64,000 bases of DNA. Source: Eledone cirrhosa (Eukaryota). The DNA lies in assembly GCA_964016885.1 (NCBI GenBank), contig OZ024757.1, forward strand, positions 41,974,001-42,038,000, in the 5' to 3' direction. Both the position numbers and the translations under genes were made by a program. The notes beneath the pieces were generated by a model. It did no database searches. It saw only the letters and a program-made list of their open reading frames with translations, and was not told the origin of the DNA. Every line of letters starts with the position of its first letter. The first letter of the stretch is position 1. This document shows positions 28,849 through 33,208 of this stretch, piece after piece.

Positions 28849-29035
28849 CTCGCTTACACACACATACATACATATATTTATATATAAACACACACATACG
28901 TATAAACGCACATATATATAGAAACATACAAACAGGCACACATATATATAAACACGCATATATATATATATATATATATAAATGTAAGTATGTATGTATA
29001 CGTACATACATATATGTATACAGACGTACAGCAGC

Positions 29036-29086
<51 letters not shown>

Positions 29087-29237
29087 CATACACATACATA
29101 CATGCACACAGGTACACATACATATATGCACGCATCAGTTTAGCCGACGTTTATTATAACGCAGCTTTGTTCGTTTGTTTGTCAACAAACAGAACAGCCT
29201 GAATTTCGGTATGCCTGACCGATTTAACTCACTCAAT

Positions 29238-29245
29238 ATGCAAAT
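29238..29245 (+). promoter_or_regulatory. Octamer motif ATGCAAAT (second copy at 29750-29757)
   Basis: Perfect octamer in each unit, ~165 bp upstream of a PSE-like box (ttaacaccgtatggcataaat, ~29402-29422). Function is inferred. Confidence 0.45.
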
Positions 29246-29318
29246 TAGGCTGCTCAGCCGTTAATTTTCATAAGGAAAGTATATACTTTCGAACGTTCAA
29301 CTATCTGGCAGATGGGTA

Positions 29319-29363
29319 AACGGTGCTGATGATAGCTAACAAGGTTGAAACTAGTACATCGTT
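29319..29363 (+). ncRNA. Minimal type I hammerhead ribozyme, unit 1 (one helix II mismatch)
   Basis: aacggtg CTGATGA t agc-taacaa-ggt t GAAAC TA GTA catcgtt; 7-bp helix I; palindromic helix III ACTAGT; predicted cut after 29356. Confidence 0.85.
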
Positions 29364-29524
29364 CCTGTGTCAGTGTTGAACAAAAAGGTGACGTGGTTGC
29401 CTTAACACCGTATGGCATAAATTCAGGCTGTTCTGTTTGTTGACAAACAAACGAACAAAGCTGCGTTATAATAAACGTCGGCTAAACTGATGCGTGCATA
29501 TATGTATGTGTACCTGTGTGCATG

Positions 29525-29597
<73 letters not shown>

Positions 29598-29830
29598 TGC
29601 TGTACGTCTGTATACATATATGTATGTACGTATACATACATACTTACATTTAAGTAAGTGCCATACTAAGAGTGAGAAATGAAATTTCGTTTTCATTTTT
29701 TTTTCAACTTATCGTTTTCGGTATGCCTGACCGATTTAACTCACTCAATATGCAAATTAGGCTGCTCAGCCGTTAATTTTCATAAGGAAAGTATATACTT
29801 TCGAACGTTCAACTATCTGGCAGATGGGTA

Positions 29831-29875
29831 AACGGTGCTGATGATAGCTAACAAGCTTGAAACTAGTACATCGTT
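29831..29875 (+). ncRNA. Minimal type I hammerhead ribozyme, unit 2 (intact)
   Basis: aacggtg CTGATGA t agc-taacaa-gct t GAAAC TA GTA catcgtt; all core nucleotides present; predicted cut after 29868. Confidence 0.9.
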
Positions 29876-30050
29876 CCTGTGTCAGTGTTGAACAAAAAGG
29901 TGACGTGGTTGCCTTAACACCGTATGGCATAAATTCAGGCTGTTCTGTTTGTTGACAAACAAACGAACAAAGCTGCGTTATAATAAACGTCGGCTAAACT
30001 GATGCGTGCATATATGTATGTGTACCTGTGTGCATGTATGTATGTGTATG

Positions 30051-30107
<57 letters not shown>

Positions 30108-30219
30108 GCTGCTGTACGTCTGTATACATATATGTATGTACGTATACATACATACTTACATTTAAGTAAGTGCCATACTAAGAGTGAGAAATGAAATTTC
30201 GTTTTCATTTTTTTTTCAA

Positions 30220-30258
<39 letters not shown>

Positions 30259-30841: not shown

Positions 30842-31074
30842 TATATTGTTAATTTATATATGATTTTTAAAATTTATATTAACTATTAAAAGTCTGAAAA
30901 TATGTTTATATATTTATATCTTACAATAATATTTATAAGATCATTTATAAAATAACAATTATATAATCTAATTACATTACAACGATAATTTATTATTAAT
31001 ATATATATAATGTTTAACTAGAGTTAAACATATTAATGAGTTAAAAAAACATATTAGAGTTAAAAAAATATTAA

Positions 31075-31500
31075 ACTAGACCTGAAAAATGCGCAAGCTC
31101 AAAAGAGCCACAAAAGTGTAGGACTAGAGTTGTTGCTCAAAAATATTGTAATCATTATCTATCGTACATTCTGTGGCATCCTTTTATAAAAAAAGAGACT
31201 CATAACGAACTCAAGACGACACGATAATTATTTAAGTGAATTTATAATATAGAATTCGGTTTAAGTGCATTTCGTATTAATCATTACTAAACATCTAATA
31301 TGAGATATTGAACATTAGTTTCAATAATTATCACGTCGTCTTGAGTTCGTTATGAGTCTCTTTTTTATAAAAGGATGCCACAGAGTGTACGATAGATAAT
31401 GATTACAATATTTTTGAGCAACAACTCTAGTCCTACACTTTTGAAGGTTTATTATAACATTCTGTGGCTCTTTTGAGCTTGCGCATTTTTCAGGTCTAGT
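31075..31500. mobile_element. Fold-back MITE with ~160-bp TIRs
   Basis: 31075-31232 is the reverse complement of ~31323-31500 (ACTAGACCTGAAAAATGCGCAAGC... / ...GCTTGCGCATTTTTCAGGTCTAGT); ~90-bp spacer. Confidence 0.85.
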
Positions 31501-31720
31501 ATATATATGTATGTCTGAGACCAGTTTATATAGATCACAGACACCCACATAGAGGGAGGGGAAGAGGGAGAAGAATTAGGAAGTAGAGGGACAAACGGAG
31601 TAGTATAGAGAGAGAGGATATATATATATATAACAAAGAAAGTGTGGTAAGAAACCAGGAGGACCATAACGCACCAGAGTACTCGATACTTAGGGTAACA
31701 GAGTGGGTAATAGGAAAATT

Positions 31721-31829
31721 GTCAGGACCCCGACAGCTGAGCTCCTGCCGTTTCGACAGCTACATCCGAACGGTTCGGATTCGGATCTAGCTGTCGAAAC
31801 GGCCGGAGCTCAGCCGTCGGGGTTCTGAC
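31721..31829. repeat. GC-rich 109-bp near-perfect hairpin made of two inverted HHR 3' halves
   Basis: Arms of ~50 bp with 4 mismatches; + strand tagctgtc GAAAC ggc-cggagctca-gcc GTC gggg. Confidence 0.85.
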
Positions 31830-31865
31830 TCTAAACTGATGCGTGCATATATGTATGTGTACCTG

Positions 31866-31903
<38 letters not shown>

Positions 31904-33208
31904 TGCTACTGTACGTCTGTATACATATATGTATGTACGTATACATACATACTTACATTTAAGTAAGTGCCGTACTAAGAGTGAGAAATGAAATTTCGTT
32001 TTCATTTTATTTCAACTTATATATATATATCGATAAATACATATATATATAAATACATATACATAAATAAATACATACGCACTCGTTTTAAATTATGATA
32101 ATACACACGCTTGCGAGCGCACATAGCTAAGTCTTCAAGAAACACTTGACCACAATGTACTGCTCAACAGGGATCGAACCTGAAACTGTGTAGCTGAAAA
32201 GGTTAAAAAGTTAAACCAGACGACCGAATCTGGCCATGTTAACACATTCTCTCGTGCACAGAGTGTGTGAATGTATCAACGTAAATCTATCAAAATGACG
32301 CTGAGAGTTACCTCCCTTAGAAATTATCCTCGTACACTTTAAAAACTCCCGCAAACACCTTGTTTTGATTTTTTTTCAACTCGGTTTTATTGTAACCCCC
32401 CACCCCCACCCCACTGTCCCTGTCTGGTTGTATTGTCCCTTATATTTGGGCCCTAGAGGACAATAATGAAATCATTATTGTTATTATTATTATTATTATT
32501 ATTAAAAATCTGTTATAAAATATATTTTACTCCCCAAAAATCCCACACTGTATCGTCCTGTACTGTCCTTAATGTTTCCTTAATGTCAGCCCTGTGTGGC
32601 TAATAAAGAAAGTATTATTATTATTATTGCAGAATCGGTAGAGCGTCGAACACGCTGCTTCGCAGTATAGAGTTATGGCCGTTTACATTCTGAGTTCAAA
32701 TCTTGCCGAGGTTAGCTTTGCCTTTCATCCTTACGGGGTCGATAAAATAAAGTACCAGTAATACACTGTGATATTGCTGGCCTTGTGCCAAAAGTAGAAA
32801 CAATTATTATTATTAATGTTGTAGTGCACCTGAGCACTGTACACAATAATTTCATTATTATTATTATTGGTTACCTGAGTCACTCCTGGGTGGTTCTCCC
32901 CCACCCACTCTATTGGCGAATTTTATTGTTAATTGATTTTTTTTTACTCGATTTAATTATACCCCCCCCCCCCCCCCCCCCGTCCCTATTGTTGTTTTTT
33001 TTATTCTCCCCTATATGTTGGCCCTAGTGGCTAATTTACGGGGTCGATAAAATAACGTGCCAATAATAAACAGGGGTTGACTTTCCCTTCCTGCCCCAAA
33101 ATTGCTGGCCTTGTGCCTAAATCAGAAACAATTATTATTTTTATTCACATTATTATTATTCCAACATTAGCTTTCGTGGTTTATTTTCTTTCCTCTACAT
33201 AATAATAC

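What the first reader, a model, noticed from the sequence alone, without database searches (positions are those of the whole stretch)
29238..29480. snRNA-type promoter signature (octamer plus PSE-like box) inside the ribozyme unit, paralleling newt satellite 2
Seen: perfect ATGCAAAT at 29238-29245 and 29750-29757; TGACGT at 29389; and ttaacaccgtatggcataaat at ~29402-29422, about 165 bp downstream of the octamer, with the HHR lying between them. Established: snRNA promoters use a distal octamer around -220 and a PSE around -60, and the HHR-containing newt satellite 2 is driven by such a promoter. Inference: each unit may carry its own snRNA-like promoter starting at ~29470-29480 and reading into the next unit's ribozyme. 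The T-run at ~29696-29704 would stop Pol III, so Pol II is more likely. The PSE match is loose and the cephalopod PSE consensus is not known to me.
Basis: partly seen in the sequence, partly recalled or inferred. Interest (0 to 1): 0.75.

Follow-up and report, generated by a model that had tools for sequence, protein, structure and literature searches.

The report
Ribozyme repeat with compact snRNA-type promoter
Each 512-base unit of this abundant jumping repeat carries, just ahead of a self-cutting RNA motif, a short block laid out like the start of the host's own U3 small-RNA genes, so it likely switches itself on, while the box first proposed as the promoter is likely part of the RNA's fold.

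Summary
The proposed layout fails. The 'PSE' box scores -7.4, -0.8 and 1.3 bits against matrices from this genome's snRNA promoters. Its 8-nt core is one strand of a covarying RNA helix. TGACGT is lost in relatives. None of 30 Pol II snRNA loci has an octamer near -220.

The octamer is real but proximal. ATGCAAATTAGG matches the -77 element of host U6, U6atac and MRP (21 bits). It is followed by TCAGC at +16, TATA at +42 and C|AG at TATA+30. These spacings match host U3 (42) and the Pol II snRNA core, not the Pol III genes (46-48). Sister families keep the spacings while the spacers diverge.

Predicted start: A29310 and A29822, 47 nt before the cleavage site, not 29470-80. Pol II is likely, because the copied template runs through T6-9. 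No RNA data were available. This resembles newt satellite 2, and earlier scan notes saw the block in other families.

The parts
28979..29206 (-). Inverted, 5'-truncated copy (unit positions 215-448); its outer end at position 448 runs into (TA)n
29205..29712 (+). Retrozyme unit 1 (period 512, with TCGT 29713-16 joining the units); C>G at 29344 breaks one pair of hammerhead helix II
29717..30224 (+). Retrozyme unit 2; array end at position 508 runs into (TA)n
29238..29249 (+). Octamer-like 12-mer ATGCAAATTAGG, matching the proximal element of host U6/U6atac/MRP (-76 to -78) and resembling that of U3 (-71 to -74); unit 2 copy 29750-29761
29254..29258 (+). TCAGC, in the register of the host Pol II snRNA core YCAGT (26 nt before TATA); likely the true PSE-like core; unit 2 copy 29766-29770
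29280..29286 (+). TATA box, 42 nt after the octamer start; unit 2 copy 29792-29798
29310..29310 (+). Predicted transcription start (A of C|AG, TATA+30); unit 2: 29822. Inferred, not measured
29319..29363 (+). Type I hammerhead motif with 2-bp palindromic helix III (CTAG); predicted cut after 29356; unit 2 copy 29831-29875, cut after 29868
29385..29403 (+). Predicted RNA hairpin holding TGACGT; a hairpin is kept at this place in W2 and A, the hexamer is not
29410..29417 (+).
29659..29666 (+). Partner strand of that helix (TGCCATAC), 6 nt past the first fixed insertion end
29423..29428 (+). TCAGGC, complementary to GCCTGA at 29725-29730; a weaker second helix that crosses the first (pseudoknot or alternative fold)
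   Evidence: 76.5% of cells paired
29653..29712 (+). 60-nt 'tail' between the two fixed insertion ends (unit positions 448 and 508), holding the T9 run 29696-29704
31831..32020 (+). Separate 3' fragment of the same family (no promoter block, no ribozyme), ending at position 508 in (TA)n

Best explanation
This is a young non-coding hammerhead repeat with Penelope-type ends whose units each carry a compact snRNA-type promoter-like block (octamer-like 12-mer, TCAG core at +16, TATA at +42) that likely starts RNA polymerase II at A29310, just ahead of the same unit's ribozyme.
Steps: (1) Shown: the motifs, their match to host snRNA upstream elements, and their spacing. (2) Inferred: the block binds the host snRNA factors and, with U3/Pol II spacing, recruits Pol II. 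(3) Inferred: transcription runs through the T-run into the next unit, and two palindromic-helix-III hammerheads cut as a dimer, releasing a 512-nt monomer that carries the next promoter and can circularise. (4) Inferred from insertion ends: a Penelope-like RT/endonuclease nicks (TA)n and starts copying internally at positions 448 or 508, giving tandem arrays with an inverted arm.
For: Host Pol III element at -76 to -78 in 5 of 5 independent promoters (U6 x3, U6atac, MRP); the unit scores 21.0 bits against leave-one-out host scores of 13.7-18.3. Octamer-to-TATA spacing is 46-48 in those 5, 42/42/42/40 in 4 U3 loci, and 42 in the unit. Core-to-TATA spacing is 23-29 in 15 of 16 U1/U2/U4/U5 promoters (18 in one, a second TCAGT), 32 in RNase P (which ends in a T-run), and 26 in the unit. 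YCA at octamer+16 is in 0 of 5 host Pol III promoters. The 12-mer 78-100 nt before CTGATGA gives 7,722 hits against 3 for the reversed pattern, with this family's spacing excluded. A prediction noted before held: YCA at +16 in 85 of the 100 listed rows (my count by eye; many are related copies). In 20 hand-picked fetched rows YCA was at +16 in 20 of 20 and the first TATA at +43 in 16 of 20. C|AG falls at TATA+30 in 8 of 13 family representatives and one base earlier in 4 more; host U1/U2/U3/U4 start on A and the 5 Pol III genes on G. The tail T-run is T6-9 at 45 of 45 sites and array ends lie 8 nt beyond it, so the copied RNA passes it. Box helix: 99.3% of cells paired, 3 of 8 pairs changed on both sides, while slid controls for the whole structure give 28-41%; five sequence variants across W, W2, A, J and J2. 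Drosophila Pol II versus Pol III snRNA promoters also differ by 4 bp in downstream-element position (PSEB at 30-37, TATA at 34-41; PMC1761439 passages).
Against: No RNA run was available, so transcription, start site and cleavage are untested. The 12-mer itself is the Pol III genes' element; U1/U2/U4/U5 lack it (best 3.7 bits or less) and carry AATTA at about -89, which the unit lacks. The unit lacks the distal TTA(C/T)(C/T)TCCC(T/C)T word seen at -265 to -288 in U6, U3 and RNase P loci (the only window match is at 32308). That U3 is Pol II in animals is recalled, not from a call, and 2 of 4 U3 loci here have T4 or more within 25 nt of their end. U11 fits neither matrix. All families are probably related, and most were found with the octamer pattern, so octamer invariance across families is circular; only the core, TATA and C|AG registers are not. 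The block also folds as an RNA hairpin in W, W2, A and J (0-16 of 300 shuffles as stable) but not in host promoters, and C|AG pairs in distal helix I, so RNA structure could hold part of the pattern. The predicted start lies inside the outer arm of extended helix I. No autonomous partner with this block was found in 50 GIY-YIG loci. Pair 10.1-11.1 is T.T in W and C.A in W2, which may lower cleavage. In J the box helix was found in only 7 of 17 old copies at 8-9 bp.
Confidence: 0.58

Rival explanations
1. Same block, but read by Pol III as a U6-type promoter, giving a roughly 390-nt RNA that ends at the T-run, with rare read-through feeding the copying cycle.
For: The 12-mer is a near-perfect match to the U6/U6atac/MRP element. 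A TATA is present. A T5-9 run sits near the unit end in W, W2 and A. W has no T4 between the predicted start and the tail (sequence; not surprising by chance).
Against: Spacing is 42-43, not 46-48. YCA is at +16 where host Pol III genes have none. The start base is A, not G. The copied template includes T6-9 in 45 of 45 tails and insertion ends lie past it. The T-run is partly a hairpin strand.
Confidence: 0.2
2. The block is not an active promoter: it is an inherited relic or an RNA hairpin (possibly protein-bound), and units are transcribed by read-through from host genes or neighbouring elements.
For: The block folds as a hairpin in several families. The families share ancestry. The distal element is missing. 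Some hammerhead repeats here have no octamer (PLE pLTR of L171).
Against: The octamer strand stays fixed while the partner strand varies. TATA and C|AG keep host promoter registers while the spacers and the distance to the ribozyme vary. Three host-like elements in host-like order are hard to get from structure alone.
Confidence: 0.17
3. One reading: distal octamer at 29238, PSE at 29402-22, start at 29470-80.
For: The 164-bp spacing fits the vertebrate textbook layout (recalled). The box loosely resembles vertebrate PSEs (recalled). Its GTA(T/C)G core is kept in W, W2 and A.
Against: The box fails all three host matrices. An octamer is present in 1 of 30 Pol II upstream regions, at -399. The box core covaries with a partner 240 nt away and differs in J. 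There is no TATA in register.
Confidence: 0.03

Closest known systems
Newt satellite 2 (Coats, Zhang and Epstein 1994; paper not held, seen only as cited in PMC2220036 and PMC6765202 passages)
   Same: Tandem hammerhead repeat reported to have an internal snRNA-type promoter and Pol II transcription.
   Different: Here the octamer-like element is proximal, next to the core and a TATA, all within 72 bp of the predicted start. The newt geometry (distal octamer; a start about 47 nt before the cut) is recalled only and could not be checked.
Metazoan non-LTR retrozymes (PMC7229834: abstract, introduction, part of methods, Discussion and passages read; bioRxiv 10.64898/2026.07.22.740005: abstract, Discussion and passages read)
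   Same: Non-coding tandem units, one type I hammerhead each, low GC, proposed Penelope dependence and circular intermediate.
   Different: The unit is 512 nt against about 170-400. Neither main text describes an endogenous promoter ('promoter' occurs only as T7 in the first and 0 times in the second; supplements not read).
Penelope-like element pLTRs (PMC11167929 and PMC4209133 passages; PMC2377424 abstract)
   Same: Two fixed internal RT start sites bounding a tail, AT-rich target, palindromic helix III, promoter inside the repeat.
   Different: No ORF; tail 60 nt against 30-40. The D. virilis Penelope promoter is TATA-less and LINE-like, not snRNA-type.
Host U3 and U6-type promoters of this genome; Schistosoma japonicum U6 'PSE' (PMC5460494 passages)
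   Same: U3: octamer-like element, TCA core and TATA at the same spacing. The S. japonicum PSE annotated at -71 begins with a similar word, so the 'octamer' may be the proximal element itself in these animals.
   Different: The unit has the U6-grade 12-mer with U3-grade spacing and lacks the distal element.
Schistosome SM-alpha hammerhead SINE-like repeats (PMC6765202 and PMC2220036 passages)
   Same: The promoter of one unit is carried along in multimeric transcripts.
   Different: Those use a Pol III promoter.

Membership tests
Metazoan non-LTR retrozyme | Short tandem non-coding units, each with a type I hammerhead | tested here: met
   arrays of up to 7 or more units; Rfam gathering threshold not reached
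Metazoan non-LTR retrozyme | Dispersed, recently amplified copies | tested here: met
   Top 40 matches 99-100% identical on many contigs; 9,986 exact box matches against 0 control
Metazoan non-LTR retrozyme | Self-cleavage and circular RNA | not testable with these tools
   No RNA holder listed
Penelope-mobilised element | Two fixed internal ends (tail), inverted 5'-truncated arm, AT-rich target | tested here: met
   at position 508, 12 true array ends among 45 sites, 11 running into TA-rich sequence; at 448, 3 among 47 plus the inverted arms
Penelope-mobilised element | Identified autonomous partner sharing the tail | tested here: inconclusive
   50 of 150 listed GIY-YIG loci examined; none has this unit as its own pLTR
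Vertebrate-type Pol II snRNA promoter (distal octamer + PSE), as proposed | Octamer about 160 bp upstream of a PSE matching the species' snRNA genes | tested here: not met
Host Pol III type 3 promoter (U6/U6atac/MRP) | Proximal 12-mer | tested here: met
   21.0 bits
Host Pol III type 3 promoter (U6/U6atac/MRP) | 12-mer to TATA 46-48 nt and start on G | tested here: not met
   42 nt; A at TATA+30
Host U1/U2/U4/U5 promoter | YCAG core about 26 nt before TATA, start on A | tested here: met
   TCAGC, 26 nt, 6.2 bits on the 5-mer matrix but only 4.2 on the 12-column matrix
Host U1/U2/U4/U5 promoter | AATTA 32-34 nt before the core; 3' box | tested here: not met
   No AATTA in register; a 7.2-bit 3'-box-like word at 29418 is not kept in W2
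Host U3-type promoter | Octamer-like element, TCA at +16/17, TATA at +40-42 | tested here: met
Host snRNA promoters generally | Distal word at about -265 to -288 | tested here: not met
Any functional promoter | Measured start site and polymerase | not testable with these tools
   No RNA or reporter data

The most novel reading that the evidence does not exclude
A whole superfamily of cephalopod retrozymes, tens of thousands of units, is self-expressed from a captured snRNA promoter whose spacing is set about 5 bp shorter than U6 so that Pol II reads through into the next unit. Some sister families (C, F) may keep the Pol III spacing. The RNA folds two crossing helices placed just 3' of the two RT start sites, which could be the long-sought recognition element for Penelope reverse transcriptase.
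Probability: 0.3. Interest if true: 0.72.

Novelty: new variant of a known kind. Interest (0 to 1): 0.5.

Why it matters
Animal retrozymes are reported as highly expressed, but the two surveys I read name no promoter, and the newt case stands almost alone. This gives a base-level prediction (start at 29310, Pol II, three elements to mutate) for a family with about 10,000 units. It also defines snRNA promoter elements for a cephalopod, which my 10 paper searches did not find described (notably). That bears on how snRNA promoters choose a polymerase and on native U6-type promoters for cephalopod genetics. The idea has a 1994 precedent and was noted for other families by earlier agents in this scan, which caps the surprise.

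Tried and rejected
Rfam scan of the window: 0 hits at gathering.

The look-up of sequencing runs: no RNA holder listed; this is no evidence either way. Contigs of six runs of unstated kind were laid. They show the family or relatives in other organisms' runs and W2-like variants. Uncovered parts were not used as evidence.

Box as a Pol II 3' box: 7.2 bits in W, not kept in W2; rejected. TGACGT as a CRE site: 0 of 30 W2 copies; rejected. T-run as a proven Pol III terminator: not supported.

An early note that W2 has an internal T7 was wrong for most copies; it holds only for L188 and L208.

Search for an autonomous Penelope with the block in its pLTR: none in 50 loci. One pLTR family has a hammerhead and TATA-like words but no octamer.

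Rows left out of the promoter sets as likely pseudogenes (no promoter-like upstream): 6 of 11 U6 loci, 5 of 6 U6atac, and 2 of 11 U3 loci; tandem near-duplicates were reduced to one per cluster. U11 (2 loci) fitted neither matrix and U12 fitted the Pol II core.

Newt primary papers (PMC308520, PMC48510, PMC102618, PMC23255) are not held. PMC13652810 mentions snRNA promoters only in a reference. Supplements of the papers were not read and could describe retrozyme promoters.

Full report
Observation. All motifs sit at the stated coordinates. They lie in two 512-bp tandem units preceded by an inverted, 5'-truncated arm, and the whole insertion is flanked by (TA)n. Each unit holds a type I hammerhead motif with a palindromic 2-bp helix III. 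Helices I and II covary between families (3 of 6 and 3 of 5 pairs changed on both sides). Array ends cluster at unit positions 448 and 508. This matches the two-start-site tail shown for a Penelope-like element in PMC11167929 (passages).

Host promoters. I fetched U1, U2, U4, U5, U6, U6atac, MRP, U3, RNase P, U11 and U12 loci. U1/U2/U4/U5 promoters share AATTA at about -89, YCAG(T/C) at about -57 and a TATA-like word at about -30. An exact octamer occurs in 1 of 30 such upstream regions, at -399. Five independent Pol III promoters carry ATG(C/G)(A/T)AAT(T/G)AG at -76 to -78 with TATA 46-48 nt later. U3 carries a weaker version at -71 to -74, TCAT 17 nt later, and TATA 40-42 nt later. RNase P has TCAGT 32 nt before TATA and a terminal T-run. 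Pol III spacing therefore appears about 5 bp longer than Pol II spacing. Drosophila shows a 4-bp offset of the same sign (PMC1761439, passages and introduction read).

The best scores in 29391-29435 are -7.4 (Pol III matrix), -0.8 and 1.3 (Pol II matrices). A circular fold of the monomer pairs 29410-18 with 29658-66. In an alignment of 17 copies from W (this family), W2 and A, this helix is 99.3% paired with 3 of 8 pairs changed on both sides. Those changes amount to few independent events, since copies within a family are related. Older families J and J2 show further variants of both strands, at 8-9 bp in 7 of 17 copies; shuffled tails reach the observed score in 13-22 of 1000 trials for W, W2 and A. 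TGACGT lies in a hairpin that W2 and A keep with other sequence. A second, crossing helix is weaker (76.5% paired; family A is offset by one column).

The real promoter candidate. The 12-mer at 29238 scores 21.0 bits, the best in the 64-kb window together with its twin. TCAGC follows at +16, TATA at +42, and C|AG at TATA+30. Between W and W2 the 12-mer and TATA show no fixed difference, while the flanks show 6/33 and 9/32. The 12-mer precedes CTGATGA in 7,722 further places at gaps of 78-100 (3 control) and 1,033 at gaps of 55-76 (3 control). Among 18 family representatives, YCA is at +16 in 15 (not C, E, F1); TATA is at +40 to +43 in 9, while C, F and G lie at +45 or later or score poorly, and E gives a weak +37. 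A prediction written before held for new families J, J2 and K (rows hand-picked). These families are related and were found with the octamer, so only the core, TATA and start registers count as non-circular.

Polymerase. The spacing, the core and the A start point to Pol II. The tail T-run is 6-9 long at 45 of 45 sites, and insertions end 8 nt beyond it. The RNA that is copied therefore passes a strong Pol III stop. Against this, the 12-mer is the Pol III genes' word, U3's polymerase here is assumed from recalled animal data, the distal element is missing, and the block can fold as an RNA hairpin.

Mechanism. Likely Pol II start at A29310, read-through into unit 2, dimer-assisted cuts after 29356 and 29868, a 512-nt monomer or circle carrying the next promoter, and Penelope-type copying from positions 448 or 508 into (TA)n. 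My odds: retrozyme with Penelope ends 0.9; block is a working promoter 0.8; Pol II given that 0.75; whole statement about 0.58.

Known systems and novelty. Newt satellite 2 is cited as having an snRNA promoter and Pol II transcription (PMC2220036 and PMC6765202 passages). The two retrozyme surveys name no endogenous promoter in their main texts. Earlier notes of this scan report a U6-like block in other families of this genome. They are leads, not support, and I saw only their summaries. Verdict: new variant of a known kind, interest 0.5.

Noticed in passing
L127, L129, L130-L132: Hammerhead families C and F have octamer-to-TATA spacing of about 45-48, like host Pol III genes; C and E have T5-8 right after the ribozyme. 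They may be a Pol III branch of the superfamily.
   Followed up: partly
Upstream of U1, U2, U3, U6 and RNase P loci (about -265 to -288); window 32308: A shared distal word TTA(C/T)(C/T)TCCC(T/C)T, a candidate enhancer of this genome's snRNA genes; one match lies in the window outside the repeat.
   Followed up: no
L218-L225, L228 (U3) and L229 (RNase P): U3 has a Pol III-like word with Pol II spacing; RNase P has the Pol II core with Pol III spacing. Both are natural hybrids useful for polymerase-choice tests.
   Followed up: partly
L081, L084, L085, L089, L091: U6 and U6atac pseudogenes sit directly against (TA)n-inserted palindromic repeats or a family H retrozyme, suggesting template switching by the same RT.
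   Followed up: no
window 31630-31829: A different (TA)n-flanked repeat with an internal palindrome, fused to the 3' fragment of this family; the same repeat flanks U6 pseudogenes.
   Followed up: no
window 31068-31508: Large imperfect inverted repeat of about 440 bp.
   Followed up: no
window 33805; L004, L024, L088, L178: Another hammerhead-like family ending GAAA-TATAT-ATA; the four locus copies show no octamer upstream.
   Followed up: no
L171, L172, L174, L180: Penelope-like elements with RT and GIY-YIG frames and a hammerhead in the downstream repeat, preceded by CCAAT and TATA-like words but no octamer.
   Followed up: partly
window 29344: Unit 1 has a private C>G that breaks one helix II pair; it is seen once in 51 covering copies.
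   Followed up: yes
L079: Hammerhead-like motifs with a longer helix III lie within the U2 tandem array.
   Followed up: no
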